Assembly (NCBI GenBank): GCA_041651535.1
Contig: JBAZIZ010000002.1
Span: 82,059-146,058, forward strand
Length of the DNA: 64,000 nt
Reading direction: 5' to 3'
Source: Patescibacteria group bacterium
GTDB taxonomy: Bacteria; Patescibacteriota; Patescibacteriia; Magasanikbacterales; UBA922
The notes below the pieces were generated by a model, which saw only the letters and a list, made by a program, of their open reading frames with translations, was not told the DNA's origin and ran no database searches. Of this stretch, positions 23,401-62,625 are shown piece after piece. The translations under genes and the position numbers were made by a program. Each line of letters opens with the position of its first letter. Within the stretch, counting starts at the first letter, position 1.

Positions 23401-26400
23401 GATTTGTATTTCCAGAAACACTCAAAGTATTATTATAATATGTGTCTAAAGCATAAACAGTGATCATTGTTGAGGAATTATAATTTATAGTTGCTGGAGC
23501 ATCAATCAAAAATCTATTCAAAGAATTTCCCACAACTGTAACTCCAAGAGAATAGCTATTATCAGCATTAGTTGAATAAAAATTATCTGTCACTTCTAAA
23601 ACAGCGTTTTCTGCTCGATATAAAATTAAATTACAAGAAGCAACACCGTTTGTAAAAGTAATTGTAGTTGTATTACCAAAAACAATTGGGCTATTATTTT
23701 TATCACTACAAGTTGGTACTATACCATTTACAGAAGAAGATGCTCCACTAAAAAATAATTCCTTATCACCAGACCAAAAAGTAGAAGTATTACCATTTAA
23801 ATCTTTTAAAATAATAGAAATAGTTTGTGAATTTCCAGCAATCTGACTACTATTACCTTTTATTTCATAATGAAAATCAGTTGATAAAACTTGTGAGCCG
23901 GCGCTATCACCACTATATAATTCAGAATTATTATCAGTTGCTGAAATGTAAGCTCGAACTTTAAATTGTAAATCATTTTGACTTGTTGGTGAAGAAAATA
24001 AATAAGTTTTTACATTTTGTCCGACTGTGGCTCCAGATATTACTGGTTCAAAATTTGAACCACCATCATAACTTACCTGAATTTCAAAACCATTTTCATA
24101 AGTTGAATTATCTTTCCAAGATAAAAACCATTGATTTGAACTAACTTGATAAAATTTTAAATCTGATGGTGTAGCTGGAGCTGTATATTCATAAGCTGAA
24201 TAAGCAAATGTGGAAGAAACATTAATAATTTCAGTTGCTGGAGCATCTGGAGGAACTATTGCTTTTACTCGATAACGATATCTACTATTACCTGACAAAC
24301 TTGTATCCAAAGTAGAAGTTCCATAAAGAGAAGAAGAAACACTAGAAAAAATATTACTAGCGCAAGAAATTCCCACACATCTATCAAGAGAAAAATAATC
24401 ACTTACTGCTGAATTATCTGTAAAAGTTAAATCAAATTTTAATGGTGAAGAATTATAAGTCGCGAGTAAATTACTTGGAGTACCAGGAACAGTATAATGA
24501 GCTACTGGATCACTGCCATAAGAAACTGAATAACCAACTGAATTAAAAGATCTAACACGATATTTATATCTTTCATTGCTTTGTGGAGGATCAATAATGT
24601 TATTTGCTACATTATCAATAAAACTATTGGTAGCTTGGGTTGTCGTTGCAATTGCTACCCAATTATTTCCAAAACCACTTCCTGTATCAGTATCTCTTTC
24701 TACCACAAAACCACTAGCAACTCCGCCAGAAGTATCACTCCAAGTTATTCTAAAAGAATTTAACGCAAAATAACTTGCAGCAACACCAGAAGGGGCAGTG
24801 GGAATTCCAACAGCTGACAAAAATACACTGCTTGTTGTAATGTTCCCATCATAATCATTATAATAATCAATTCTCAAAGTTTCTAAATTTGTTACGTTAT
24901 TAATCGTAAAATAAGTTTCTGCTAAACCATCATCAGTAAATTCACTAGATGAAACAATTGTTGGGCTAATAGACGCAAAAGTATCAACTGTGCTAGTGAC
25001 TGAAACTTGTGTGTCACTATTTACATAATTTGTTATATTTCCAAAAGCATCTTTAGAAATACTATCAATCGTAAAAGGAATACCAGAGATAACATTTGCT
25101 GATGATGATAAAATAAATTCATTTAAAATTTGAGAACCTACTGTCACTATTAAAGCATAATCATTGGAACCAGAAGTATTAAAATTATTTCCCGAAACAT
25201 CTATTTGAACTGTCTCATTTTTATAAAGTTTAAGAGTCGTTGTCGCTTCCCCATTTATAAAATTTAAAGTGGTAGTAGAACCAAAATTTCTATTATTTTC
25301 AAAGATATCTTTTGCTGTCGGACGATCAGAATATGGACTATTGTTTGCTCCATAAAAAATAATATCGTAATTTCCATTATAGGTACTACTGACTGAACCA
25401 AATTCATCAATCAAAAATATAGAAATAACCAAATCTTCTCCGGCAGTTACACTAGCAGAAGAAGCTCCTGATTTTCTCACTTCATAATGAGGAGGCGCAG
25501 TGACAAAAGTAAAATTTATATTATTACCACTATCGACACAACCATTAATACATAAAACTGCCGAACTATTGAAATTTACTATATCTTTGACATCCAAAAA
25601 TTCTACTGCTCTAGCGCCAGCAAAATCTATATTTGCTTGAGTACCACTGACTGTAGAATGTAAGCTGAGTAAATTGTTTGGAATTCCAGATAAATTTGCC
25701 GAACCTTCGATTTTTATATCTGAGCCAGCAGTAACATATAAAATTTGAGAGGAAGTAACAGTTTTTGTTAAATCATTGAAAACGATAAATCCACCGATAG
25801 TTTGAACTTCACCATTTAAAATCACTAAACCAGAATTAGCATCAAAAATACCTGGAGATAACATCAAAATATTTCCACCTACATATAAAGTAGTAGAAGG
25901 AGCGATAAAATTTCCATTACTACCTTCGAGATTATTATAAATAGAAAAAGAATCCGTAGCTTCATACAAAGGATTAACACTGACCAAATCAGAAATTTCA
26001 CTGACAGGTAAAACACGATAATAAAAAGCTACATCGTCTAAAATACCACTGAAATAATACTGTCCATCTATACGACTTCCTAATCTAGTCAAAGAAAAAG
26101 GAGTAAGTCCAGTAGAAGAAAGACATTGTTCTACTAAAATACCATCACGATAAATTTTCCAATCAACATTACTACCAGTAACATTTATTGTCGAAGTATA
26201 ATGATGCCAACCAGTAGTAAGATTTGTATTACAAGTAATTTGATTAGAAGAAGCATCTCTCAAAGAATTATACAATGTTCCACCAATGTTACTAAAAAAA
26301 TAATCATAAACAGAACCACCAGCAATCGGGACCTGAGTGTTTGAAAGATTAGAATAATTTATCCAAGCAGACACAGAAAATGTTTTATCCAATTCACCAT

Positions 26401-29400
26401 GACTTGCTGAAACATAATCATCTACTCCATCAAAACTTAATCCAAAATTATTTTTTCCAGCTACCCAAGTAGGAGCTAAACTACCAGCGCCTAAAGTCCC
26501 ATGTCTTCCGTTGCCAGATAAATCATTGATTGTGTTTCCACTTCCTTCATCCATGTTCCAATAACTAAGTAGCCCAGATTTTAAATTTCCGGCTAACTTT
26601 TTAACATCTTCAGCTTTGATCGCTTTATTATAAATTTTTACTTCATCTAGAACACCTTTATAAGCACGAGCGCTAGAATAAGCAGAATATCCAAAATATA
26701 AATTACTGGATGCACAAGTATATTTAGACCAAGTGTAGCTACCAGCCAAAACACCGTCAATATACAGACTCATATATCTACCATCATAAGTACCGACCAT
26801 ATGATGCCAATTATTATCAGTTACAACTCCTTTTATGAGACTATAATATCCCACTCCCCAACCACCGCTGTTATCTCCTACTGTATAAGTAATAGTTTTT
26901 GCTGTTTTTTCTTTCAACCCAATAGCCCAACCTGCCAAACCATAATCAGGACCAAATTTTTCAATAAGTGTTGGGTAATCATTTGCTTGTGTACCAGCTT
27001 TCATCCAAAATTCTACGGAAAAATTAGCTGTACAAAAATAATTACTAGCTCCAAAATTTACAAAATCACTACCATCAAAAGAAACAGCTGAGCCAGATTT
27101 TCCACTTGTCCAAGTCGGCGCTGAACCACCAGTACCAAAAACTCCATTCATGCCATTACCTGATTGATCATAAACTGTAGTTCCATTACCTTCGTCCATA
27201 CTCCAATAAGCAATCAAATTATCATTCATATCCCCGACTGTATTAAAAATATCATCACCATCTGTAAAATTTATTTTTAAATTATAATAATAAGGAAATA
27301 AAGTATCATAAAAAGTAGCTAAGCCATCATTATTTCCCACATAAGAAACAGTACCAGAATCAGTATCATTTACTAAATTTGTATATTCATTACCAGCGAC
27401 GTCTAGAGTACCTTCATTAAAAAAATTTGTTGGAGAAGATAAAATCAAAGTATTAGAATTTAAAAACAAAGTTCCATCTTCATTTATTTGTAAATAACCA
27501 TTTACTGTCAAACTAGAATTATTTAAACGAAAAATAGAACCTTCTATACCATTTATTATCATATTACCCACACTACTTGCTGATAAAATATTATAAGTAC
27601 CTGTGTTTGTCCTATAATATTCAACGATACTATTATTAGCAAATTGCGGATAACCGGTATTAAAAGAATAAGTAGCACCGCTCATAAGACGAAGTCTGGC
27701 ATCATTAGCAACTATAAAAGTTGATCCGCTTCCTGTCACTCTAAGACTTTTATCTGATAAATCAAAAGTACCAGAATTTAAAAGTAGATTTTTTGAATTA
27801 TCCATTGTCAAATCTGATAAAAGAAGCAAAGACCCGCCTGTTTTATTTATTCTAATTTCTCCATCAAGACTTGAAACTACGGTATTTAAATTTATATTTT
27901 GTTCATTATCTCCAGAAAAAGTAATAAGTGGTTGAATAAAACCATCAGTAATTTCTAAATTTCCTCTGAGATTTAAATTGGAAACAGTGTTATCTCCATA
28001 AATATATCCTTTACTGATCAAAGTATCACCATATATATTTACAGTATCACTACCAGCAATTTGTAGATAATAAGAATTGCTAGATTTATTGAGTTTAAAA
28101 TTATAAAAATTTATAGACGAAACTACATCTAAAGTCGTATAACTACTTCCTCTAAAATCTACCGTTCCAATCCCTGGATCAAAAATACCACCAGTATGAG
28201 TGAAATTATTATAAAAATAAGCATTACCTTGCGGGGCGTTGAAAATTCCACCAGACAAAGTAAAAAGAGAATTAAAATATAAATTATGAGATCCAAAAGT
28301 AGCAGTTCCATTTGAATGAGTGTAAGAACCAGCAAAATTCCAATTGGTATTAGTAGTGCTTAAATTTCCGCCGGATTGAAAAGAGGCTGTACTAAATTGC
28401 AATTGTCCACCTTGCCCAATGTAATGAGTATTTCCAGCAGTAGTTTCAATAGTATAAGCATAGGTAGTGGCACTTGGACCATAAACAGTGGTAGATGCCC
28501 CAGCAAAAACAAGACGAGGTAAGTATGTTCCACCAGCAATAGACAATGTTTGCGATCCTGTGCCTGCTAAAAGTAATTGCACTATATTTCTCGCACTTGG
28601 AGTTATATATGTTGATTCTACCACTACATCACCTCTTGCTTCCAAAGCTGAATAAGTATTTCCTCCATAAAGCCAGCCGATATTTTTAAGCGTAGTTGTC
28701 CCAGTGACAACTATCCTATCATTATCATCTATTCGTAAATGATAACCAGCATATGATTTATTTAAAACAAAATTATTGAAAGTGACTGAATTTCCAGTAG
28801 TTGCTACTACATTGATATTCTGATCAACAGTAGATCCCACAAAATGCACTGTTCCACTTCCTCCACCAAAGACACCGCCAGTATGAGTGAAATTATTATA
28901 AAAATAAGCATTGCCTTGTGGGGCGTTGAAAATTCCACCAGACAAAGTAAAAAGAGAATTAAAATATAAATTATGAGATCCAAAAGTAGCAGTTCCATTT
29001 GAATGAGTGTAAGAACCAGCAAAATTCCAATTGGTATTAGTAGTGCTTAAATTTCCGCCGGATTGAAAAGAGGCTGTACTAAATTGCAATTGTCCACCTT
29101 GCCCAATGTAATGAGTATTTCCAGCAGTAGTTTCAATAGTATAAGCATAGGTAGTGGCACTTGGACCATAAACAGTGGTAGATGCCCCAGCAAAAACAAG
29201 ACGAGGTAAGTATGTTCCACCAGCAATAGACAATGTTTGCGATCCTGTGCCTGCTAAAAGTAATTGCACTGTATTTCTCGCACTTGGAGTTATATATGTT
29301 GATTCTACCACTACATCACCTCTTGCTTCCAAAGCTGAATAAGTATTTCCTCCATAAAGCCAGCCGACATTTTTAAGCGTAGTTGTCCCAGTGACAACTA

Positions 29401-31474
29401 TCCTATCATTATCATCTATTCGTAAATAATAACTAGCATATGATTTATTTAAAACAAAATTATTGAAAGTGACTGAATTTCCAGTAGTTGCTACTACATT
29501 GATATTCTGATCAACAGTAGATCCCGCAAAATGCACTGTTCCACTTCCTCCATCAAAAACACCACCAGTATGCGTGAAATTATGATAAAAATAGGCGTTG
29601 CCCTCTGAAGAATAAAAAGTCCCACCAGATAAAGTAAAAACATTACTAAAATAAATATTACCTTCAGGGGCATTGAATATTCCACCAGACAAAGTAAAAG
29701 TAGAAGCAAAAGTGATATTTCCTAAGCCAAAAGTAGAAATACCGTTTGAATGAGTATAAGTACTACCAAAATACCAATTTGTATTGGTAGTAGTCAGGTT
29801 TCCGCCTGATTGTAGTGAAGGACCACTCATCTGAAGTTGTCCACCTTGTCCGATATAGTGAGTATTTCCTGATATTGTCTCAAAAGTATAAGCATAGGCA
29901 GCCGCTTCTGGACCATAAACTGTGGTAGATACTCCAGAAAAAATCAATCGTGGTATATAAGTAGCACTGGCAATATTGACTGTTTGTGGTCCTGTACCAG
30001 CAATATTTAATCTAAAACTATTTCTTCCATAAGAATAATTATGGGTTGATTCTATCACCACATCACCTCTAGCTTCTAAATTTGAATTAGCATCACCACC
30101 ATATAAATAACCTCTTCTTAAAGTAGTAGTGCCATTAACTATCAGTTTGTCAGCCGAAGAAATTGTTAAATAATAACTAGTATCATTTTGATTTAAAATA
30201 AAATTATTGAATGTAACAGTATTTCCGCTAGAAGCTGCAATATTAAAAGTTGTATTAATTCCTCTAAAATGTGCAGTTCCAATTCCTCCATCAAAGATAC
30301 CTCCAGTGTGAGTAAAATTACTATCAAAATATGTATTTGTCTCAGAAGCGGTAAATGTTCCTCCAGATAAAGTAAAAGTAGAATAAAAAATAACATTTCC
30401 CACACCAAAAGTAGAAGTTCCATTGGAGTGAGTATAAGAACTACCAAAATACCAATTAGTATTCGTAGTTGTCAGATTGCCCCCAGACTGAAGTGATGGA
30501 CCACTCATCTGCAACTGTCCACCTTGTCCAATATAGTGAGTATTTCCTGATATTGTCTCAAAAGTATAAGCATAGGCAGCCGCTTCTGGACCATAAACTG
30601 TGGTAGATACTCCAGAAAAAATCAATCGTGGTATATAAGTAGCACTGGCAATATTGACTGTTTGTGGTCCTGTACCAGCAATATTTAATCTAAAACTATT
30701 TCTTCCATAAGAATAATTATGGGTTGATTCTATCACCACATCACCTCTAGCTTCTAAATTTGAATTAGCATCACCACCATATAAATAACCTCTTCTTAAA
30801 GTAGTAGTGCCATTAACTATCAGTTTGTCAGCCGAAGAAATTGTTAAATAATAACTAGTATCATTTTGATTTAAAATAAAATTATTGAATGTAACAGTAT
30901 TTCCGCTAGAAGCTGCAATATTAAAAGTTGTATTAATTCCTCTAAAATGTGCAGTTCCAATTCCTCCATCAAAGATACCTCCAGTGTGAGTAAAATTACT
31001 ATCAAAATATGTTGTTCCTTGTGAAGCATTGAAAGTACCACCAGATAAAGTAAAAGTAGAAGCAAAAGAAATATTTCCTAAACCACCATTGAAAACACCG
31101 TTTGATTGGGAAAAAGTACCACTAAGAGAAAAAGTATAACCGCTTTCACGAGTAATAGTTCCAGTGTAACCAGAAGAAATTGTAAAACTATTTAAATTGA
31201 CATTGGCATCTATAGAACAATCAGCTGTAGCTGTACCATTAAAAACAACAAGATCGCCAGTTCCAGGAGTACCTACAGGAGACCAGTTATTACTATTTGT
31301 CCAGAGTCCATCTCCTCCACTGTTTGTCCAAGTGTAAGTTGTGCCCGCAGCAAAAGATTGCCAAGTTACAAAAGCACCAATAAATACTAAAAACAAAAAA
31401 AATGTCCAAGGGTGTTTGGAAAAAAAGCTTAATGATTTTGTTAAGTTTTTCAATGAAAAACGTTTCTTTTTCAT
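14480..31474 (-). CDS. Giant (5664 aa) cell-surface protein: signal peptide, 4-5 tandem ~226-229-aa Gly/Thr/Asn-rich beta-repeats, two LamG/concanavalin-like lectin domains, ~5 large FN3/Ig-like repeat modules, CarbopepD_reg-like domain, C-terminal TM anchor
   Basis: Uninterrupted 17-kb ORF; N-term MKKKRF...FLFLVFIGAFVTWQSFA; LamG-like 'LIAYWSMDEGNGTTVYDQSGNGMNGV...NWHHMVGTYDG' twice; repeated 'TAPSxV/L...W.D.S..E.GF.IE' FN3-like units; C-term WKKYLDWKTVLPIAFSLFLLYYY. Confidence 0.85.
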   Translation of the reverse strand: MKKKRFSLKNLTKSLSFFSKHPWTFFLFLVFIGAFVTWQSFAAGTTYTWTNSGGDGLWTNSNNWSPVGTPGTGDLVVFNGTATADCSIDANVNLNSFTISSGYTGTITRESGYTFSLSGTFSQSNGVFNGGLGNISFASTFTLSGGTFNASQGTTYFDSNFTHTGGIFDGGIGTAHFRGINTTFNIAASSGNTVTFNNFILNQNDTSYYLTISSADKLIVNGTTTLRRGYLYGGDANSNLEARGDVVIESTHNYSYGRNSFRLNIAGTGPQTVNIASATYIPRLIFSGVSTTVYGPEAAAYAYTFETISGNTHYIGQGGQLQMSGPSLQSGGNLTTTNTNWYFGSSYTHSNGTSTFGVGNVIFYSTFTLSGGTFTASETNTYFDSNFTHTGGIFDGGIGTAHFRGINTTFNIAASSGNTVTFNNFILNQNDTSYYLTISSADKLIVNGTTTLRRGYLYGGDANSNLEARGDVVIESTHNYSYGRNSFRLNIAGTGPQTVNIASATYIPRLIFSGVSTTVYGPEAAAYAYTFETISGNTHYIGQGGQLQMSGPSLQSGGNLTTTNTNWYFGSTYTHSNGISTFGLGNITFASTFTLSGGIFNAPEGNIYFSNVFTLSGGTFYSSEGNAYFYHNFTHTGGVFDGGSGTVHFAGSTVDQNINVVATTGNSVTFNNFVLNKSYASYYLRIDDNDRIVVTGTTTLKNVGWLYGGNTYSALEARGDVVVESTYITPSARNTVQLLLAGTGSQTLSIAGGTYLPRLVFAGASTTVYGPSATTYAYTIETTAGNTHYIGQGGQLQFSTASFQSGGNLSTTNTNWNFAGSYTHSNGTATFGSHNLYFNSLFTLSGGIFNAPQGNAYFYNNFTHTGGVFGGGSGTVHFVGSTVDQNINVVATTGNSVTFNNFVLNKSYAGYHLRIDDNDRIVVTGTTTLKNIGWLYGGNTYSALEARGDVVVESTYITPSARNIVQLLLAGTGSQTLSIAGGTYLPRLVFAGASTTVYGPSATTYAYTIETTAGNTHYIGQGGQLQFSTASFQSGGNLSTTNTNWNFAGSYTHSNGTATFGSHNLYFNSLFTLSGGIFNAPQGNAYFYNNFTHTGGIFDPGIGTVDFRGSSYTTLDVVSSINFYNFKLNKSSNSYYLQIAGSDTVNIYGDTLISKGYIYGDNTVSNLNLRGNLEITDGFIQPLITFSGDNEQNINLNTVVSSLDGEIRINKTGGSLLLLSDLTMDNSKNLLLNSGTFDLSDKSLRVTGSGSTFIVANDARLRLMSGATYSFNTGYPQFANNSIVEYYRTNTGTYNILSASSVGNMIINGIEGSIFRLNNSSLTVNGYLQINEDGTLFLNSNTLILSSPTNFFNEGTLDVAGNEYTNLVNDTDSGTVSYVGNNDGLATFYDTLFPYYYNLKINFTDGDDIFNTVGDMNDNLIAYWSMDEGNGTTVYDQSGNGMNGVFGTGGSAPTWTSGKSGSAVSFDGSDFVNFGASNYFCTANFSVEFWMKAGTQANDYPTLIEKFGPDYGLAGWAIGLKEKTAKTITYTVGDNSGGWGVGYYSLIKGVVTDNNWHHMVGTYDGRYMSLYIDGVLAGSYTWSKYTCASSNLYFGYSAYSSARAYKGVLDEVKIYNKAIKAEDVKKLAGNLKSGLLSYWNMDEGSGNTINDLSGNGRHGTLGAGSLAPTWVAGKNNFGLSFDGVDDYVSASHGELDKTFSVSAWINYSNLSNTQVPIAGGSVYDYFFSNIGGTLYNSLRDASSNQITCNTNLTTGWHHYTSTINVTGSNVDWKIYRDGILVEQCLSSTGLTPFSLTRLGSRIDGQYYFSGILDDVAFYYRVLPVSEISDLVSVNPLYEATDSFSIYNNLEGSNGNFIAPSTTLYVGGNILMLSPGIFDANSGLVILNGEVQTIGGFIVFNDLTKTVTSSQILYVTAGSDIKIEGSANLSGIPNNLLSLHSTVSGTQANIDFAGARAVEFLDVKDIVNFNSSAVLCINGCVDSGNNINFTFVTAPPHYEVRKSGASSASVTAGEDLVISIFLIDEFGSVSSTYNGNYDIIFYGANNSPYSDRPTAKDIFENNRNFGSTTTLNFINGEATTTLKLYKNETVQIDVSGNNFNTSGSNDYALIVTVGSQILNEFILSSSANVISGIPFTIDSISKDAFGNITNYVNSDTQVSVTSTVDTFASISPTIVSSSEFTDDGLAETYFTINNVTNLETLRIDYYNDYDGNITTSSVFLSAVGIPTAPSGVAASYFALNSFRITWSDTSGGVASGFVVERDTDTGSGFGNNWVAIATTTQATNSFIDNVANNIIDPPQSNERYKYRVRSFNSVGYSVSYGSDPVAHYTVPGTPSNLLATYNSSPLKFDLTFTDNSAVSDYFSLDRCVGISCASNIFSSVSSSLYGTSTLDTSLSGNSRYRYRVKAIVPPDAPATEIINVSSTFAYSAYEYTAPATPSDLKFYQVSSNQWFLSWKDNSTYENGFEIQVSYDGGSNFEPVISGATVGQNVKTYLFSSPTSQNDLQFKVRAYISATDNNSELYSGDSAGSQVLSTDFHYEIKGNSSQIAGNSQTISIILKDLNGNTSTFWSGDKELFFSGASSSVNGIVPTCSDKNNSPIVFGNTTTITFTNGVASCNLILYRAENAVLEVTDNFYSTNADNSYSLGVTVVGNSLNRFLIDAPATINYNSSTMITVYALDTYYNNTLSVSGNTNLSLYVNSVLTGTINPAIISATNFTDDGIWAGNITVTDIYENPTVVITAVNGSANGSDSFLFNGRPNTPGSVAVSYISDNEFEITWQDRSTIETGYLVQKKTDTGSGLPGTWVTIATLSTNTQSFVDNATNNPLDAPQADRRYMYQIIASGSIVSSYGASDNLIHYTTPDYPTNFYATYVNDNRFNLYFTDNANVINTHVFSRCDSAGCDSSTFNFLGKSSSSPYADTASLLANNRYKYVSHSETPSPESLISSDVYSAYEFTSPAAPSAFYASEATSNTISFVWTDNALYESGYLLEYAVASSSVFTPIYNNGITTVGADMTGFSFASSTPDNAYRFKMRSAISATVRNGALYSSYVGGTEYVYTQPNKPINQAAIFSTSTVISLSWDDDSNYEDGFRIEVSINGGGWSEITTSTNTVGANITTYDLVDVDLNNDYQFRVRSHIAGNTFAPEVFSEYTEVFSPQSYHFEFSPLNDITTTAGTTTTVTLALKDSGGNIVSDYNGEKNVYFSGASSSITGVEPTVINFNGEQIDFGSITSINFINGEAEINMFLPAVGSYNIDADTLAYSTAENNSYQLRVSVDPASVDSFTISSQQSTVTSTIPFTLSVTAFDEYLNTTTAVLGNTYISSSIGDISPVGIAEADFTDDGIWEGSVTLSNINDRNTVYLYVNNGSANGEIYLTVIGIPNKPSGVASSLNSDEEGSYFSIGWSDNSVVETGYEIQKCVLASSGASCAEGDWSLATTTSANIHNTRDYSVSLDSKIKYRVRGFNSIGYSDWATEVNYHFTKPDAPINVYAKRISSSQFSVYYTSQTGITNEHRIFRSDYYFTSNESNSFYSVSSPYSDTYQITTNNRFLYNVKAKTSDGIYSDDSYSIYEYTTPVAPSSVISAIVNETQVQISWVDNSLFESGFRIEESINSGSWNEIDSGNDQTGQNIRTYLHTVSSTSSNTYKYRVRAHIGETANNSELFSSYSNEAIAEISDLHFEIYAPATTTAGVVTALQIALRDVNGNNASYFTGNRILKFISDGTQPTLYCSDKDGNNIMFGENTTVSFINGAATCSTTLYNAVTTTIDVYDDSFSSTSSPAYDLDLKVEPNVARKFSVSAPTQAVSTVPSTVRLIAQDFWNNTTTLIFNTTTVSVSTGSVSPLQILDSSFENGIATISLVISSIIERPAVNVEFRGFDSYSSTTIYGNAYITVLGVPNAPTSVSSVRNSNESITLSWSDNSTIESGYAIERQVDEGSGFGSWIFVAQVNTNIHSYTDYSTVANRRYKYRVRTIGSFANSDYAEDPINSLGGIYTTPTAPTFISPVRYSDNRFDITFVDNALVTNYFDLKRCDGAACSTNSFSAITTTPILLIPSQTVTGTINYTDNLNIDVNNRYRYAFTVKPPASSGSTVSAVAYSNYEYTKPAAPSGVNAIKTEENIIYIYWDDNSSYEDGFRIEYSDDSAEHFTEVTPGTNTVGANVESYNFTIPSTTLTYLFRIKSHVPATASNVELLSDFDQTQTSETHLVVTGSNTQNVGESQTITLTIRDGENNIITDYDGDKSIILTGPSNSLTGVQATCTNKSGNPVNIGLITTINFVDGVGQCNFTPYRAETVLLRATDGLHTSYTHPSYNLNLTAVAGTLNNFLVAIPATSSIDLAFETIIYARDIYNNITKQVSGNTSLTASVGSLSVNSIAQSDFTDDGIWYGNLSINNLYDLNNVILTAQNSGASGYDSIEIIAAPNLPLNVLASYISDNQINISWTDNSSAEDYYVVEKRSDTTGSGFGSWTTLATTSPNAVILSDINTAGNKRYEYRVYSGNIYGNSDYVYSNVVYTSLPAPVITTSTVLSANSMVWDWTSSALFSTEFRLHFTSSNHLDYININSSSDSFTVNDLTPNTGYQIVLYTWRSDRGYSPASNTSTLLYTFAALPTDIQVSTNTDETLTLNWNQNSNPSSTEYKVKNITTGDESEWITNNSWTDNNLDCETSYDYIIKARNHDNVETDWTVTSTLETGLCVMPSIPNSFSAEYISDSQIDLSWLSTDIYSKSFVIEKRVNYGSGFNSWSVLATTTNANSSLSDTVVSVNSAYEYRIRGVNKIGESENLASAVIYTGLLAPTINTPSAILDNSITFNWINNSNFAEEFVLEFVEGEHEDIENINVTNTSFIVEDLLPNTIYSVKVYAANSSRGRSEASATSTAVYTLAEIPDLITATSTTQNSMTLNWSAGDNPSGTEYYIEEINSTTTNSGWTTTTVWNISNLSCGVNYSFRIKTRNFENVESGWSANNSFSTESCPSFGGDGSSSFNYVRPSTDNLGIKINNGALYTNNKNVQLNLSAGNDVSDMAIANDISFDQIPQESFAEVKDWILSGGDGLKKVYVRFFGRVGGLSSETYFNSIILDTTPPSISFTDYKSSYSIHEKIKISGLTEANSLIFVKIDGAGEKQISADNEGKWNLDLNYLPFGKYSLIVKAKDQAQNLGKENSLIVNVDNENIINDEEKENEEDFIEEEKNTEETDLWLKAKELGVEILGEITDLPLIKDIVDKISDWLKEPETETVNIPLVDAVPQITPIAFEIRWNLFPVKKFILAPLPNEVRLLAEKFPEFSTTLTETGVARMTDMIKMKNINFVLPSLSSTILNRVAEINIPVISSTGSVKYGDIKITNLENSSSSFNIDLDPSKLDTGEFFSYSLPLAKLSEEEKKQIPTEIMFVKNALADLDLNTKVAINENGRPIQKINTISGTTVELIVKPQAKVNSVKGYVVYKNSGIVQAKSAVTAGSNLNKILSDIFAGEAVFAETAEKEIPVEERLVLKEFEYTDPDSDGIYTAFVDIPVKDGEYEIITVFDYIDSELGRKQIRLLTVVDPEGYVYEKVGEKEMRVKGSVVSLYRKNETSGEFELWNATKYQQINPQTVGVTGDYSFLVTPGEYYLEAKAKGYKNYRGEYFTVDINDAIFENIQLYPAATWKKYLDWKTVLPIAFSLFLLYYYNHKNKKIKT
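28190..31150. repeat. Intragenic tandem direct repeats: two perfect 678-bp units (~29790-31145) and two near-perfect 687-bp units (~28190-29563), plus a diverged fifth unit
   Basis: Identical strings recur with periods of 678 bp ('ccactcatct' at 29823 and 30501) and 687 bp ('gtatgagtga' at 28194 and 28881; 'gtatgcgtga' at 29568); mirrored as identical 226-aa protein repeats. Confidence 0.85.
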
Positions 31475-59326: not shown

Positions 59327-60037
59327 TTATAATCCAACTGAATTAACTCCGTATTCTGCTTGTCCTTGCGTAAAACCCTCATATAATAGTTGGCCTATTA
59401 AACCACCACGTGAAAATGAAGAATAATCCAAATATTGTTCGGCACTTTTAGCTGCCTGTTCATTCCAATCAGCACCAGAATTATCTGTTCCATAAACTGC
59501 ATCAACATGTGAAAATTTTTCGTATTCCAATTGTTTAATCAATCCCTCACGAGAAAAAGCAGAATAATCCAAATAAGCTTTTGCACTTCTGATAGCATTT
59601 TTTTGACTAACTGTTTCGGTTGATACTGGTATAATATCTTGTTTATCTACTTCTTCGGTCTGAGTTTGTGTTGGTAAAGATACTGGTGTAGTTTCTGATG
59701 CTGTTTGAATTTCATCTTCTTTTACAGGAGCGACTGTTATATTACCACTCTCTTCTACTATCATAGGAATATTTTCTTCTTTTTCTTCTACAATTTCTGT
59801 ATTTTGTGTATTCTCTACTACAACATGATTTTCTGTCTGATTATCAGTATCCTCAGGTGTTTCAGTTGTAATTCCAAATAGAACAAAAGAAACAATAATT
59901 GAAATACCAAAAATTTTTCCTATTCTTTTCCTAGTTATCTCACCTTTTAAAAATTTAGAAAAAGACGATGGTTTAATAAGCCCGATTATCAAACAGACGA
60001 AAGAACCTAAAAATATTAGCAAAAATAAATTTTCCAT
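59327..60037 (-). CDS. Membrane-anchored protein with two C-terminal Ltp-family (host cell surface-exposed lipoprotein, PF07553-like) domains
   Basis: N-terminal TM; tandem 'AKAYLDYSAFSREGLIKQLEYEKFSHVDAVYGT' and 'AEQYLDYSSFSRGGLIGQLLYEGFTQGQAEYGVN' match the Ltp 'A..YL....FSR.GLI.QL...GF....A.YAV' signature. Confidence 0.65.
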   Translation of the reverse strand: MENLFLLIFLGSFVCLIIGLIKPSSFSKFLKGEITRKRIGKIFGISIIVSFVLFGITTETPEDTDNQTENHVVVENTQNTEIVEEKEENIPMIVEESGNITVAPVKEDEIQTASETTPVSLPTQTQTEEVDKQDIIPVSTETVSQKNAIRSAKAYLDYSAFSREGLIKQLEYEKFSHVDAVYGTDNSGADWNEQAAKSAEQYLDYSSFSRGGLIGQLLYEGFTQGQAEYGVNSVGL

Positions 60038-60082
60038 ATTATGTTATACTTAAATAAATAAATCCACTGCACCTTTGTATTT

Positions 60083-60198
60083 AAAAACACAAAAGGCTCT
60101 CCATGCAATGGTGATCTCTTACGAGACCCAGTAACCTTTCGGTTAAAGACTGGATAAACAATACCAAAGATGAGAGAGCCATCTCTATGTTTATCCAG
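60083..60198 (-). ncRNA. Candidate structured leader/sRNA with pseudoknot-like interleaved stems and terminal U-tract (attenuator or riboswitch-like) upstream of the Ltp gene
   Basis: GC-rich island; GGCTCTC(60095)/GAGAGCC(60174) and CTGGATAAACA(60150)/TGTTTATCCAG(60188) are interleaved; nested CCAGT-AACC-tttc-GGTT-ACTGG; on the minus strand the closing helix is followed by UUUUGUGUUUUU. Confidence 0.3.
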
Positions 60199-60441
60199 TT
60201 TTAGACCATGCCCACAAAGCGAGTTTAGGTCTTTAAATTGTTGCTTATATTCTAGCAAAATATTTTTTAAAAAGCAAGGTAAAAAACAAAAAAACACCTG
60301 TAAAAAAAGTATTTTATTTATTATGGACAAATTATAATTATTATATTGACAATAAAAATTATATTGTGTATAGTTTATATACAAACGGCTTCGGCCTCCG
60401 AGACCCTGTTTTCCTCTTATGGATCACAGGGATCGTTTTTT

Positions 60442-60726
60442 TTATAAAAAGTCTTTTATCTTTTTTCTAACTTCATTAAATTCTTCTTTTGAAATTGTTC
60501 TTACTTTTCTTAATAATCTCTTAGAACTGATAAGTCTTAATTGGGATAAAATTAAATATGACGTTTCATTTTTATATTTTACAGGAAAATAATATTTCTT
60601 ATTATTAGTTTTATCTTGACTGGTCATCGGAATAATCCACATTATTTCCAGATTAAATTGTTTTATTATAAGAACAGGTCTTTCAAAAGTTTCGTTTTTC
60701 CCATTTTGTTCAAAGCCAATATTCAT
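60442..60726 (-). CDS. MazF/PemK-family endoribonuclease toxin (N-terminally short)
   Basis: 'GFEQNGKNETFERPVLIIKQ' aligns to the MazF 'VGSEQGGVRPVLVIQ' segment; 'ILSQLRLISSKRL' = MazF 'LxQxRTIxxxRL'; C-terminal 'ISKEEFNEVRKKIKDFL'. Confidence 0.6.
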   Translation of the reverse strand: MNIGFEQNGKNETFERPVLIIKQFNLEIMWIIPMTSQDKTNNKKYYFPVKYKNETSYLILSQLRLISSKRLLRKVRTISKEEFNEVRKKIKDFL

Positions 60727-61024
60727 CCCTATACTAGCTCACCAATTTTCTCGTACTTTAAAAAAAATATTTTGTTTTGCTAAGTGTATTCTTATTTTTA
60801 ATTTTGTCCATTCTATAAAATTTTTTATTTTCCCCTCCATATTTTAAAGTTATTTTAATAATATATATTTTATCAAAAAATAATACAAAAACAAAAAATT
60901 TTATTTTACAAAACCATTTTTAAATGTAACCCAATTGTCTGAAACTTTTATTTCAGAGCAAGAAAAAAACCTTTATTTAAAAATAAAAATATGTTAAAAT
61001 AAACACAAAATATAATAAGTAAAT

Positions 61025-61975
61025 ATGATTCTTTCAATAGCTTTATTAATTTTATCTTTGCTAACTGTAATAAAAAGTGCTGATTACGCAATTCATTATT
61101 CAGGAAAAATTGCCAGAAGTTTAAATCTTTCTAAATATATAGTTGGTTTTTTAATTGTGGCCGTAATTTCAATTTTACCTGAAACTTTAGTATCAGTAAA
61201 TTCAGCTTTAAAAGGTGTACCTGCTTTTGGTTTAGGTACACTTTATGGATCAAATATTGCTGATTTAACATTAGTTTTTGCTTTAGTGGTTTTATTATCA
61301 AGTAGAAACCTAAAAATTGAAAGTAAAATAATAAAAAATCGTTTTTTTTATATAGGACTTGTAGCTATACCAATTTTATTAGGTTTGAATGGACATTATT
61401 CACGTCTAGAAGGAATTATTTTAATAATATCTGGCCTGAGTTTTTATTTTTATATTTTAAACAAAAATCATTGTTCTCCAAAAGATATTAAAGAAAAAAT
61501 CAATTTATCTGATTTAACATTATTGATTATTAGCATGATTGGTTTGATTTTTGGATCACATTTTACTGTAAAATATGGGATTACTTTTGCAAATAGTTTA
61601 AAAATTAATCCAGTTTTAATCGGTATGTTTGTTGTGGGGGTTGGAACAACCTTACCTGAATTATTTTTTTCTGTCAGAGCCGCAAAAAATCACAATGATG
61701 ATTTGGCTTTAGGAGATATTTTAGGGACTGTTATGGCTGATGCTACCATAGTTGTTGGAATTATAGCTGTTATTATACCTTTTGCTTTTAATCCAAAAAT
61801 AATTTATATAACTGGTACATTTATGTTTTTGGCAATAAATTTGCTTTTTCATTTTATAAAAACTGAAAAACTTTTAACAAAAAAAGAAGCAGTTTTGCTA
61901 TTATTTTTTTATTTTATTTTTGTCTTCACTGAATTAGCCATAAACGATCAACGTTTTATAGAATTATTTAAATAA
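61025..61975 (+). CDS. Ca2+/Na+ antiporter (CaCA family, YrbG-like)
   Basis: 10 TM; duplicated alpha-repeat motifs 'GTLYGSNIADLTLVFALVVL' and 'LGDILGTVMADATIVVGIIAVI'. Confidence 0.6.
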   Translation: MILSIALLILSLLTVIKSADYAIHYSGKIARSLNLSKYIVGFLIVAVISILPETLVSVNSALKGVPAFGLGTLYGSNIADLTLVFALVVLLSSRNLKIESKIIKNRFFYIGLVAIPILLGLNGHYSRLEGIILIISGLSFYFYILNKNHCSPKDIKEKINLSDLTLLIISMIGLIFGSHFTVKYGITFANSLKINPVLIGMFVVGVGTTLPELFFSVRAAKNHNDDLALGDILGTVMADATIVVGIIAVIIPFAFNPKIIYITGTFMFLAINLLFHFIKTEKLLTKKEAVLLLFFYFIFVFTELAINDQRFIELFK

Positions 61976-62002: not shown

Positions 62003-62003
62003 G

Positions 62004-62075
62004 TGCTCCCGCCAGGAATCGAACCTGGATTTTTGGTTCCGCAAACCAATGTCCTATCCGTTGAACGACAGGAGC
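62004..62075 (-). tRNA. tRNA with anticodon GCG as read (would decode CGY = Arg); needs tRNAscan confirmation
   Basis: Minus-strand GCTCCTG-TC-GTTC-AACGGATA-GGAC-A-TTGGT-TTGCGGA-ACCAA-AAAT-CCAGG-TTCGATT-CCTGG-CGGGAGC-A: full cloverleaf with TTCGATT T-loop; anticodon loop U32-U33-G34-C35-G36-G37-A38. Confidence 0.65.
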
Positions 62076-62078
62076 TTT

Positions 62079-62342
62079 TTAAATTATCATTTTTATTTTT
62101 CCATCATTAATCATTTTTTGTAAATAATCTTTTCTTTTTAGTTTTTTAATTTTTCTCTCAATTTTTCTAGCCACTTCTAAATTATTATATTCTTGAACTA
62201 ACACTAATTCAATATTTTTCATGTTTCTAGTTGTTTGAGTATGGCCATTTTTATGTTGTTTCAATCTCCTATCTATATTTGATGTGCTTCCAACATAAAA
62301 TCTGTTATCATTACTTTTTAATATATATACATATCCCCCCAT
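62079..62342 (-). CDS. GIY-YIG nuclease superfamily protein (YhbQ-like, 87 aa)
   Basis: 'GYVYILKSNDNRFYVGSTSNIDRRLKQHKNG...' GIY-(10)-YVG + R + 'VLVQEY...E..IK' motifs; starts 21 nt after the tRNA-fragment duplicate and ends 3 nt before the intact tRNA. Confidence 0.75.
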   Translation of the reverse strand: MGGYVYILKSNDNRFYVGSTSNIDRRLKQHKNGHTQTTRNMKNIELVLVQEYNNLEVARKIERKIKKLKRKDYLQKMINDGKIKMII

Positions 62343-62365: not shown

Positions 62366-62444
62366 TCCTATCCGCCCCGATGTTTCGCTTTAGCGAAAAT
62401 CGGAACTCCGACTCCACAGGACGTCGGAGTTGAACGACAGGAGC
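62366..62444 (-). other. Duplicated 5' fragment of the adjacent tRNA (positions 1-16 + D-arm 3' part GGATAGGA) interrupted by a 55-nt two-hairpin insert
   Basis: 'GCTCCTGTCGTTCAAC' (identical to tRNA nt 1-16) + 'TCCGACGTCCTGTGGAGTCGGAG' (9-bp hairpin) + 'TTCCGATTTTCGCTAAAGCGAAACATCGGGGC' (hairpin) + 'GGATAGGA' (= tRNA nt 17-24); 3' 'TTGAACGACAGGAGCTTTTTAAATT' repeated at 62061 and 62431. Confidence 0.6.
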
Positions 62445-62625
62445 TTTTTAAATTCAAAAAAATTATATATTAAAATTATTAAAAAGTCAACCGTATACAA
62501 TCAATTATGTCTGTCAGCAGGCAAGAAGTCGAAAATTTATTGTTTAAAATCTTTTTATTTTTTAATTTTTACTTTTTAATTTTCTTTTGCTATAATAAAA
62601 AGTATAGTAATCACCAGTTTAATAT

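What the first reader, a model, noticed from the sequence alone, without database searches (positions are those of the whole stretch)
60442..60900. Orphan MazF/PemK-fold toxin with an in-frame, TGA-interrupted upstream extension and no visible antitoxin
The 94-aa ORF aligns with MazF from the 'GSEQGGxRPVLVI' strand onward. It lacks the usual first beta-strand (RGDIxxVDF). Directly upstream, in the same frame, a 33-codon ORF (MEGKIKNFIEWTKLKIRIHLAKQNIFFKVRENW) has a GGAGGGG-adjacent ATG. It ends at a TGA only five codons before the annotated ATG (…NW*ASIGMNIGFEQ…). No MazE/AbrB/RHH-type antitoxin ORF lies in the 300 bp upstream, and no ToxI-like tandem RNA repeats are present. Three readings fit. 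It may be a pseudogenised toxin (TGG>TGA). It may be a toxin with a stop-codon readthrough N-terminal extension. It may be an orphan toxin controlled by an RNA or a distant partner. It sits next to an Ltp-type (phage superinfection-exclusion family) membrane protein, which would suit a small defence locus.
Basis: partly seen in the sequence, partly recalled or inferred. Interest (0 to 1): 0.5.

Follow-up and report, generated by a model that had tools for sequence, protein, structure and literature searches.

The report
Broken MazF toxin, conserved antisense RNA
The 94-codon "orphan toxin" is the tail of a 132-codon MazF/PemK-type RNase gene broken by a stop codon at a conserved tryptophan, and its missing antitoxin is probably a conserved ~60-nt small RNA gene on the opposite strand, which no database or paper searched here describes.

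Summary
On the minus strand, a 33-codon ORF (60739-60840) runs in frame into the 94-codon PemK ORF (60442-60726), separated by TGA plus four codons.

About 240 homologues are 129-135 aa and cover the joined sequence end to end. The TGA sits where they have the second Trp of REIWWASLG, which is beta-strand 1 of the MazF fold. This copy is therefore a nonsense-interrupted gene (TGG>TGA), most likely a recent pseudogene. The annotated 94-aa protein lacks beta-1.

No protein antitoxin is conserved next to this family in 82 loci. Instead, almost every copy has a small RNA gene on the opposite strand:
- It has a near-consensus sigma-70 promoter, two covarying hairpins, a conserved CUCCGAGA linker and a U-tract that touches the toxin stop codon.
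- The window copy is intact (60346-60443, + strand).
- It matches no Rfam family, and I found no paper describing it.

I read it as an RNA antitoxin. That role is inferred, not shown. The gene break itself is ordinary. The toxin-sRNA module, widespread in Patescibacteria, is the interesting part. The proposed link to the neighbouring Ltp gene as a defence locus is not supported.

The parts
60442..60840 (-). Whole interrupted gene of the N-terminally extended PemK/MazF family: 132 codons if the TGA is read as Trp.
   Evidence: 237 homologues of about 130 aa cover the joined sequence. The 33-sequence alignment has mean column identity of 65%. The family profile aligns to B. subtilis EndoA residues 4-109.
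60739..60741 (-). In-frame TGA replacing the conserved Trp34 codon, inside beta-strand 1 (REIWWASLG).
   Evidence: Trp in 32 of 32 aligned homologues and at least 90% of 112. L003 has TGG TGG where the window has TGG TGA. The sequence is identical in L001 and L002.
60742..60840 (-). 5' part of the gene: a family-specific N-terminal helix (conserved W11, K13, K15, H19) and the start of beta-1. It carries two further unique substitutions, E29V and I/V32N.
   Evidence: The AF2 model of the closest intact homologue has a helix at residues 2-20 and a strand at 31-36.
60442..60726 (-). The annotated 94-aa ORF, which is the 3' part of the gene. It lacks beta-1 but keeps the residues aligned with the MazF catalytic Arg and Thr (R54, T73 in full-length numbering).
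   Evidence: Pfam PemK_toxin at 49 bits, profile positions 13-109. It is protein P0005 in public annotation. EndoA alignment.
60381..60443 (+). Small RNA gene convergent with the toxin gene: ACAAAC, P1 hairpin GGC-UUCG-GCC (60387-60396), linker UCCGAGA, P2 terminator hairpin (60399-60435), U8 (60436-60443). The U-tract overlaps the toxin stop codon by 2 nt.
   Evidence: Covariance-model hit at 60378-60441 (+), 68.3 bits, E=8e-20, and the only good hit in the window. The fold is -22 kcal/mol with z=-3.4. Covariation is shown and the strand test.
60346..60374 (+). Promoter of the small RNA: TTGACA, 17 nt, TATAGT.
   Evidence: It matches 11 of 12 consensus positions and is the best promoter-like site in 60000-61100. 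The same promoter at the same distance is found in 49 of 69 relatives at 10/12 or better, against 0 of 69 control segments.

Best explanation
The locus is a two-gene module typical of Patescibacteria. The first gene encodes a MazF/PemK-fold endoribonuclease toxin of about 132 aa with an extra N-terminal helix. The second is a ~60-nt structured small RNA transcribed towards it from the opposite strand. It ends at an intrinsic terminator whose U-tract touches the toxin stop codon.

In this genome the toxin gene has been knocked out. A G>A change turned the conserved Trp34 codon in beta-strand 1 into TGA, next to two other unique substitutions in the same strand. The gene is a recent pseudogene, and the annotated 94-aa ORF is only its tail. 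The small RNA gene is intact.

The small RNA most likely acts as the antitoxin. Because it is fully complementary to the toxin mRNA 3' end, I favour antisense pairing that destabilises or silences the toxin mRNA, as in type I systems with 3' overlap. Its conserved unpaired motifs suggest that it is probably also recognised directly by the toxin protein, in a type III-like way.

Shown: the gene structure, the stop at a conserved Trp, the existence, strand, structure and association of the small RNA, and the absence of a conserved protein partner. Inferred: toxicity, loss of function, and the antitoxin role and mechanism.
For: - **Gene.** Full-length homologues cover the joined ORF. Trp is conserved at the TGA position, and V29 and N32 are seen in no homologue. 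REIWWASLG aligns with EndoA beta-1, and R54 and T73 align with EndoA R25 and T48. The AF2 model (pLDDT 85) matches MazF structures at TM about 0.76.
- **Genetic code.** Long ORFs, including one of 5664 aa, are intact under table 11. The ndk gene ends with TGA after a complete NDK domain.
- **The stop is reproducible.** It is present in three assemblies.
- **No protein partner.** The largest cluster of flanking ORFs covers only 5 of 82 loci, and it is a housekeeping gene.
- **Small RNA.** It is present next to the toxin in about 72 of 82 loci, always antisense and always abutting the stop codon. 93.9% of cells are paired against 73% in shuffles and at most 52% in slid controls, and 12 of 15 pairs show compensatory changes. 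The strand opposite the toxin has 110 G-U pairs against 37, and it is more stable in 60 of 69 cases, p=3e-10. The promoter is conserved.
- **RNA-side test.** 29 of 37 model-positive small RNAs found in metagenomes by a 17-mer have an abutting convergent toxin gene. One has a toxin remnant, and several are decayed orphans. That pattern is what is expected if the RNA can outlive the toxin.
- **Precedents.** 3'-overlapping antisense antitoxins such as RatA/txpA and SR6/yonT (PMC6562991). A structured RNA that neutralises a toxin by direct binding, RCd22/AbiF (10.1101/2025.04.15.648962).
Against: Apart from beta-1, the window gene is as conserved as its intact relatives: 70% against 71% identity in residues 39-132, with 1 unique residue against a mean of 4. 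Either the break is very recent or the gene is still under selection. UGA is the leakiest stop codon and its near-cognate reading is Trp, so some full-length protein cannot be excluded. Three hits at conserved positions within six codons are odd for neutral decay.

For the small RNA there are no expression, binding or rescue data. A purely antisense mechanism does not explain the strong conservation of ACAAAU and CUCCGAGA. The P2 hairpin is kept even where a separate third hairpin is the terminator. One intact small RNA (L152) lies next to an unrelated ORF. A few toxin copies have no detectable small RNA, or only a divergent one. The covariation alignment was fitted to the model.
Confidence: 0.68

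Rival explanations
1. The gene is still functional. The UGA is read through at low frequency by tRNA-Trp, restoring the native Trp. This gives a small, tolerable dose of full-length toxin, an attenuated allele rather than a dead one.
For: The stop lies exactly at a Trp codon, so near-cognate readthrough would restore the wild-type residue. TGA is a rare stop in this genome, used by 1 of about 35 genes. The rest of the gene shows no extra decay. The small RNA partner is intact.
Against: No homologue has a stop at this site, so it is not a conserved recoding site. V29 and N32 hit two other conserved beta-1 positions, so even a readthrough product would be altered. TGA does terminate ndk. Another relative (L033) has TAG at the neighbouring Trp33, which fits random nonsense hits at Trp codons.
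Confidence: 0.13
2. The 94-aa ORF is translated from its own ATG and acts as a truncated orphan toxin or as a toxin-derived regulator.
For: An ATG exists at Met39, and the ORF is annotated as such in public records. The residues aligned with the catalytic Arg and Thr lie in this part.
Against: Met39 is simply a family residue, present in 22% of homologues including the closest one, not a new start. There is no ribosome-binding site before it. The product lacks beta-1 of the barrel, which every solved MazF has. No homologue of that length exists other than this same sequence.
Confidence: 0.05
3. The TGA is a sequencing or consensus error, or a minority allele, and the real gene is intact.
For: The source is a metagenome-assembled genome. 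A single-base G/A difference would be enough.
Against: The sequence is identical over the region in three assemblies made with different assemblers. The two neighbouring unique substitutions argue for a genuinely diverged allele. No intact allele above 71% identity exists among 5.8 billion clustered proteins.
Confidence: 0.05
4. The conserved element 3' of the toxin gene is not an antitoxin. It could be a transcription terminator or insulator cassette, a recombination or mobility site of the module, or a small RNA with a different role such as a toxin substrate, cofactor or target mimic.
For: In L003 the 564-bp module is bracketed by a perfect 32-nt direct repeat, which suggests cassette-like insertion. 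Modules sit in unrelated contexts. The conserved primary sequence is unnecessary for antisense action. L152 carries the RNA without the toxin.
Against: A near-consensus promoter at a fixed distance, an intrinsic terminator, a G-U strand bias and covariation are hallmarks of an expressed RNA, not of a DNA site. No flanking repeat is found in the window. A toxin family without any conserved protein partner needs some neutraliser. RNA-only remnants with lost toxins fit an antitoxin.
Confidence: 0.22

Closest known systems
MazF/PemK/EndoA type II toxins (Pfam PF02452; B. subtilis EndoA 4MDX/1NE8, S. aureus MazF 4MZP)
   Same: Same fold (Foldseek TM about 0.76). Same sequence family. The Arg-Pro and Thr positions aligned with EndoA R25 and T48 are conserved.
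   Different: There is an extra conserved N-terminal helix of about 25 aa. No mazE-type protein gene lies next to it in 82 loci. The partner is a convergent small RNA gene. The window copy is interrupted by a stop codon.
Type III toxin-antitoxin systems (ToxIN, CptIN, TenpIN) and the RCd22/AbiF RNA-protein pair
   Same: An endoribonuclease-type toxin is paired with a structured non-coding RNA instead of a protein. From established knowledge, ToxN has a Kid/MazF-like fold. Conserved unpaired RNA motifs suggest protein recognition, as shown for RCd22 (10.1101/2025.04.15.648962).
   Different: There is no tandem repeat array. The RNA is single-copy with its own promoter. It lies downstream on the opposite strand, rather than upstream and co-transcribed. 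The toxin is a canonical PemK, not ToxN, AbiQ or AbiF.
Type I systems with convergent, 3'-overlapping antisense antitoxins (B. subtilis txpA/RatA, yonT/SR6, bsrG/SR4; E. faecalis par)
   Same: There is a convergent small RNA gene at the 3' end of the toxin gene. The RNA is perfectly complementary to the expected toxin 3' UTR. The terminator hairpins could start pairing through loop contacts (PMC6562991).
   Different: Type I toxins are small hydrophobic peptides, whereas here the toxin is a 132-aa RNase. The RNA sequence is conserved across classes far more than antisense action needs. Overlap with the toxin transcript is inferred, not shown.
aMEF antisense RNA of E. coli mazEF (PMC8749433)
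   Same: An antisense RNA is associated with a MazF locus.
   Different: aMEF accompanies a normal MazE-MazF pair and stimulates its expression, and its promoter is poorly conserved. Here there is no MazE, and the RNA gene is the most conserved neighbour.

Membership tests
PemK/MazF toxin family (PF02452) | Significant match to the family profile | tested here: met
   49 bits against a cut-off of 23.1 for the 94-aa part. The family profile hits EndoA and MazF chains in the PDB.
PemK/MazF toxin family (PF02452) | Complete SH3-like barrel, including beta-strand 1, in one polypeptide | tested here: not met
   In the window, beta-1 (RENW*ASIG) is cut by TGA, and the 94-aa ORF starts after it. Intact homologues do meet this feature.
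PemK/MazF toxin family (PF02452) | Catalytic Arg and Thr/Ser positions conserved | tested here: met
   R54-P55 is invariant or nearly so, and T73 is conserved in at least 90% of sequences. They align with EndoA R25 and T48.
PemK/MazF toxin family (PF02452) | Sequence-specific endoribonuclease activity and toxicity | not testable with these tools
   This needs expression and cleavage assays.
Type II MazEF module | Adjacent co-transcribed protein antitoxin gene (MazE/AbrB, RHH or similar) | tested here: not met
   No conserved flanking ORF within 900 bp in 82 loci; the largest cluster covers 5 loci. The MazE-like ORF near L003 lies outside the module and is not recurrent.
Type III TA (ToxIN-like) | Antitoxin RNA encoded as tandem repeats upstream of the toxin, on the same strand | tested here: not met
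   There are no tandem repeats. The RNA is single-copy, downstream and on the opposite strand.
Type III TA (ToxIN-like) | RNA binds and inhibits the toxin protein directly | not testable with these tools
   The only indirect hints are conserved unpaired motifs and P2 being kept where it is not the terminator.
Type I TA | Cis-encoded antisense RNA complementary to the toxin mRNA | tested here: inconclusive
   The convergent arrangement abutting the stop codon holds in all of about 72 adjacent small-RNA hits among 82 loci. Overlap requires the toxin transcript to extend through the RNA gene, and no transcript data are available. Pairing with the translation start region is not supported.
Type I TA | Small hydrophobic, membrane-active toxin peptide | tested here: not met
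   The toxin is a 132-aa soluble MazF-fold protein.
Programmed stop-codon readthrough or recoding | In-frame stop conserved at the same site in relatives | tested here: not met
   Trp is present at this site in all 32 homologues aligned and in at least 90% of the 112 aligned. Only L033 (TAG at Trp33) and L068 carry in-frame stops, and at other sites.
Alternative genetic code (table 4 or 25, TGA as sense) | Frequent in-frame TGA in conserved genes, and TGA not used as a stop | tested here: not met
   All long genes are open under table 11, including one of 5664 aa. The ndk gene ends at TGA after a complete domain.
Any Rfam 15 RNA family | Match of the small RNA to a curated covariance model | tested here: not met
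   No hit at gathering score, and none even at E<=10 over 60250-61030 on either strand.

The most novel reading that the evidence does not exclude
The N-extended PemK proteins of Patescibacteria and their convergent ~60-nt small RNA form a previously undescribed kind of toxin-antitoxin module. In it, a canonical MazF-fold endoribonuclease is neutralised by a single structured RNA rather than by MazE. The RNA would combine type I geometry (a cis-antisense at the 3' end) with type III-like recognition by the toxin, perhaps through the family-specific basic N-terminal helix. The window would then show the expected decay state: toxin knocked out, RNA retained.
Probability: 0.5. Interest if true: 0.75.

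Novelty: new variant of a known kind. Interest (0 to 1): 0.6.

Why it matters
Taken alone, the broken gene is an annotation correction: the 94-aa "toxin" in public records is a fragment.

The module matters more, for three reasons.
- Hundreds of apparently solitary MazF/PemK genes in Patescibacteria (229 loci among GTDB species representatives) have no antitoxin gene. A conserved RNA partner would explain this.
- It would extend RNA antitoxins to the classical MazF family.
- It would add a well-supported structured small RNA to a group of organisms with very few known regulatory RNAs.

The idea is directly testable in E. coli with a 0.6-kb construct.

Tried and rejected
- **TGA as a sense codon (table 4 or 25).** Rejected for this genome. 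It may apply to relative L068, which has two in-frame TGAs at Gly-like positions.
- **Protein antitoxin.** The MazE-like 57-aa ORF downstream in L003 looked promising. It lies outside the repeat-bracketed module and is not recurrent.
- **RNA on the toxin strand (3' UTR element or attC-like site).** Rejected in favour of the opposite strand by G-U bias, promoter and U-tract.
- **Small peptide encoded by the RNA (AUG in CAAAUGG).** Rejected. The AUG is absent in the window and in several relatives, and hairpin lengths vary.
- **Anti-Shine-Dalgarno action of the CCUCC linker on the toxin start region.** Not supported. Predicted pairing is no better than with interior windows, -6.6 against -7.5 kcal/mol, and most toxin genes have no Shine-Dalgarno sequence.
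- **Known RNA families, including the pemK motif.** No Rfam hit.
- **RNAalifold on a plain MAFFT alignment.** It recovered only 6 pairs because of register shifts. A hand-annotated seed and covariance model were needed.
- **Phage origin.** Only one IMG/VR relative, with a divergent RNA. The 17-mer hits in viral contigs were chance matches.
- **Defence annotation.** No PADLOC hit.
- **LOOT RNA as part of the module.** It is absent from L003, and I did not pursue it further.
- **Literature.** Eight full-text searches found no description of this module and nothing further on the LOOT RNA.

Full report
**What is in the sequence.**
The window is AT-rich (28.6% GC). Its exact 94-aa ORF is recorded publicly as a PemK/MazF family toxin of a Patescibacteria MAG (P0005). 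On the minus strand, 60430-60900 translates as ...*NMEGKIKNFIEWTKLKIRIHLAKQNIFFKVRENW*ASIGMNIGFEQNGKNETFERPVLII...KDFL*.
- The 33-codon ORF (60739-60840), its TGA (60739-60741), four sense codons and the 94-codon ORF (60442-60726) share one frame.
- Pfam PemK_toxin matches the 94-aa ORF at E=8e-13, but only from profile position 13.
- GGAGGGG lies just after the ATG (ATG GAG GGG). It is not an upstream ribosome-binding site.

**The upstream ORF is the true N-terminus.**
A search with the joined sequence found 237 proteins. Almost all are 129-135 aa and cover 95-100% of the query, and the best is 71% identical. In alignments of 33 and 112 members:
- W11 and K15 are invariant, and K13, H19, F27, E29, E31, I32, W33, W34, S36 and G38 are conserved in at least 90%.
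- The consensus around the stop is YFKEREIWWASLGxNIGFEQDGK. The window reads FFKVRENW*ASIGMNIGFEQNGK.
- The TGA therefore replaces the second Trp. The closest relative has TGG TGG where the window has TGG TGA.

The family profile aligns with B. subtilis EndoA residues 4-109. REIWWASLG corresponds to VKRGDVYFADLS, which is beta-strand 1. R54 and T73 fall on EndoA R25 and T48. An AlphaFold model of the closest intact homologue has pLDDT 85. It shows a helix at residues 2-20 followed by a MazF barrel, and it matches S. aureus, B. cereus and B. subtilis MazF structures at TM about 0.76.

**Is the stop real, and is it a stop?**
- The region is identical in an ENA MEGAHIT contig and in a Logan assembly of SRR8542065.
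- The genome uses the standard code. All long genes, including one of 5664 aa, are open under table 11. TAA dominates the stops of ORFs of at least 150 aa (30 TAA, 4 TAG, 2 TGA).
- Only one of the two TGA-terminated ORFs is not buried in a longer ORF. It is ndk, and it ends 12 codons after a complete NDK domain.
- No aligned homologue has a stop at this site. Relative L033 has TAG at the neighbouring Trp33. L068 has two TGAs at Gly-like positions and may come from a table-25 organism.

**Pseudogene or attenuated allele?**
Two more residues in the same strand, V29 (Glu in 94% of homologues) and N32 (Ile or Val in all of them), occur in no homologue. The N-terminal extension (55% against 58% identity) and residues 39-132 (70% against 71%) are as conserved as among intact relatives.

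I conclude that this is a recent knock-out concentrated in beta-1. The most likely state is a pseudogene. Low-level UGA readthrough by tRNA-Trp remains possible, and I give it about 13%. The 94-aa product lacks a core strand and has no start signals of its own. Met39 is a family residue, not a new start.

**No protein antitoxin, but a conserved small RNA.**
A scan of one genome per GTDB species found 229 loci, of which the best 80 were fetched. Nearly all carry Patescibacteria-group names or automated binning labels. Clustering all flanking ORFs of at least 35 aa within 900 bp gave no family present in more than 5 of 82 loci.

What is conserved is the DNA directly 3' of the stop codon. Read on the strand opposite the toxin, it is a complete small RNA gene:
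- a promoter, TTGAC(A/T), 17 nt, TATAnT;
- about 7 nt to the start, then (A)CAAAUGG;
- hairpin P1, often with a UUCG loop and of variable length;
- the linker CUCCGAGA;
- hairpin P2;
- (A)UCG followed by U6-8.

*Strand.*
- Minimum-free-energy folds contain 110 G-U pairs on this strand against 37 on the toxin strand.
- This strand is the more stable in 60 of 69 loci (p=3e-10).
- A promoter matching at least 10 of 12 consensus positions sits at a fixed distance in 49 of 69 loci, against 0 of 69 control segments.

*Specificity.*
A covariance model built from 13 sequences was run over 670 kb on both strands. It found 76 matches at E<=1. About 72 lie within a few bases of a toxin stop codon, all antisense. 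The window hit is 60378-60441 (+), 68.3 bits.

*Structure.*
- 93.9% of cells are paired, against 73.3% in shuffles and at most 52% in slid controls.
- 234 cells show changes on both sides, against 72 in shuffles.
- 12 of 15 pairs show compensatory changes. The caveat is that the alignment was fitted to the model.
- The window RNA folds at -22 kcal/mol with z=-3.4. Its promoter, TTGACA-17-TATAGT at 60346-60374, is the best in the region.
- No Rfam 15 family matches, even at E<=10.

**The test from the RNA side.**
The 17-mer GGCTTCGGCCTCCGAGA was searched in metagenome contigs. Of the first 100 loci, 37 contained a model hit. Their neighbours were as follows:
- 29 have a convergent toxin homologue with a gap of -12 to +12 nt.
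- One (L183) keeps only a C-terminal toxin remnant.
- About five are orphans with degraded U-tracts.
- One (L129) is a chance match inside a GC-rich ORF.
- One intact RNA (L152) lies next to an unrelated ORF.

RNA copies without toxin exist. Intact toxin copies without the RNA, or with only a divergent one, are few. That asymmetry is what is expected of an antitoxin.

**How it probably works.**
Steps shown: a MazF-fold protein with catalytic-type residues, no conserved protein partner, and an expressed-looking, structured, strictly convergent small RNA.

Steps inferred:
- The protein is a toxic endoribonuclease.
- The small RNA neutralises it.

Two mechanisms fit.
- *Antisense (type I-like).* The invariable geometry, with the RNA complementary to whatever 3' UTR the toxin mRNA has, is that of 3'-overlapping type I pairs such as RatA/txpA and SR6/yonT. 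There, duplex formation triggers RNase III-dependent decay (PMC6562991). On the toxin strand, the complement of P1 followed by AUUUGU could serve as the toxin's own weak terminator. That would also explain why ACAAAU is conserved.
- *Direct binding (type III-like).* Conservation of CUCCGAGA, and of a CGA/UCG stem base with an internal loop, persists across classes whose toxins are only about 45% identical. P2 is retained in a sub-family where a third hairpin is the terminator. Both point to recognition by a protein, as in type III systems and the RCd22/AbiF pair. The basic N-terminal helix (W-TKLKIRIH) is the obvious candidate surface.

I favour a dual role with antisense action as the core, and I rate the antitoxin reading as a whole at about 0.6. 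Pairing of the linker with the toxin start region was tested and is not supported.

**What it is not.**
- It is not a type II MazEF pair, because there is no MazE.
- It is not ToxIN-like: there are no repeats, and the position, strand and toxin family all differ.
- It is not a classical type I system, because the toxin is an RNase, not a peptide.
- It is not a recoding site or an alternative genetic code.
- The Ltp-like neighbour is separated from the module by a LOOT RNA and is not a conserved neighbour, so a defence locus is not supported. PADLOC gives no hit.

**Novelty.**
Eight full-text searches found no description of a PemK/MazF toxin with a convergent small RNA, or of this RNA. The library searched is incomplete, so this is absence of evidence only. 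I classify the module as a new variant of a known kind (RNA-controlled toxin-antitoxin modules) and the window copy as a decayed member.

Noticed in passing
window 60113-60231 (-): A LOOT RNA (Rfam RF03000) scores 70.9 bits against a gathering score of 46.4. It lies between the small RNA promoter and the Ltp-like gene. A spurious 122-aa ORF (60016-60384) overlaps it. It is absent from L003, so it is probably unrelated to the toxin module.
   Followed up: partly
window 14480-31474 (-): A single 5664-aa ORF occupies 17 kb, a giant protein of the kind reported in Patescibacteria. I did not examine it.
   Followed up: no
L003 5718-5749 and 6314-6345: A perfect 32-nt direct repeat, itself a terminator-like hairpin, brackets the 564-bp toxin-plus-small-RNA module. 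This suggests cassette-like insertion with duplication of the target. No equivalent repeat flanks the window copy.
   Followed up: partly
L152 6107-6167 (-): This is the best-scoring small RNA from the metagenome scan (74 bits, intact terminator). It has no PemK neighbour and follows an unrelated ORF of unknown function. It may be an orphan antitoxin or the partner of a different toxin.
   Followed up: partly
L033 about 4088 and L068 3100-3380: Other interrupted copies exist. L033 has TAG at Trp33, the codon next to the window's stop. L068 has two in-frame TGAs at Gly-like positions, as expected if that genome uses table 25 (TGA = Gly).
   Followed up: partly
window 60832-60838 and the first 10 codons of relatives: GGAGG occurs within -20 to +30 of the toxin start codon in 10 of 69 loci, against 0.8 per interior 50-nt window. 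In some loci it could be a Shine-Dalgarno sequence for a slightly downstream start. In the window it is codons 2-3. Most toxin genes otherwise have no Shine-Dalgarno sequence and start a few bases after the preceding gene.
   Followed up: partly
L007, L011, L016, L034, L043, L045, L056 (3' of the toxin gene): A sub-family of the small RNA has a third hairpin that provides the U-tract terminator, while P2 with a GCGA loop is kept upstream of it. P2 is therefore more than a terminator.
   Followed up: no
L088 3390-3490 (IMG/VR contig): The only toxin homologue on a predicted viral contig has a small RNA with the same layout (TTGACA promoter, ACAAAU, UUCG hairpin, terminator) but without the CCGAGA linker.
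   Followed up: no
window 62003-62342 (-): A GIY-YIG protein of 87 aa (62079-62342) lies directly beside tRNA-Arg(GCG) at 62003-62075. A second tRNA-like translation signature appears near 62370-62460, but ARAGORN did not call a tRNA there.
   Followed up: no
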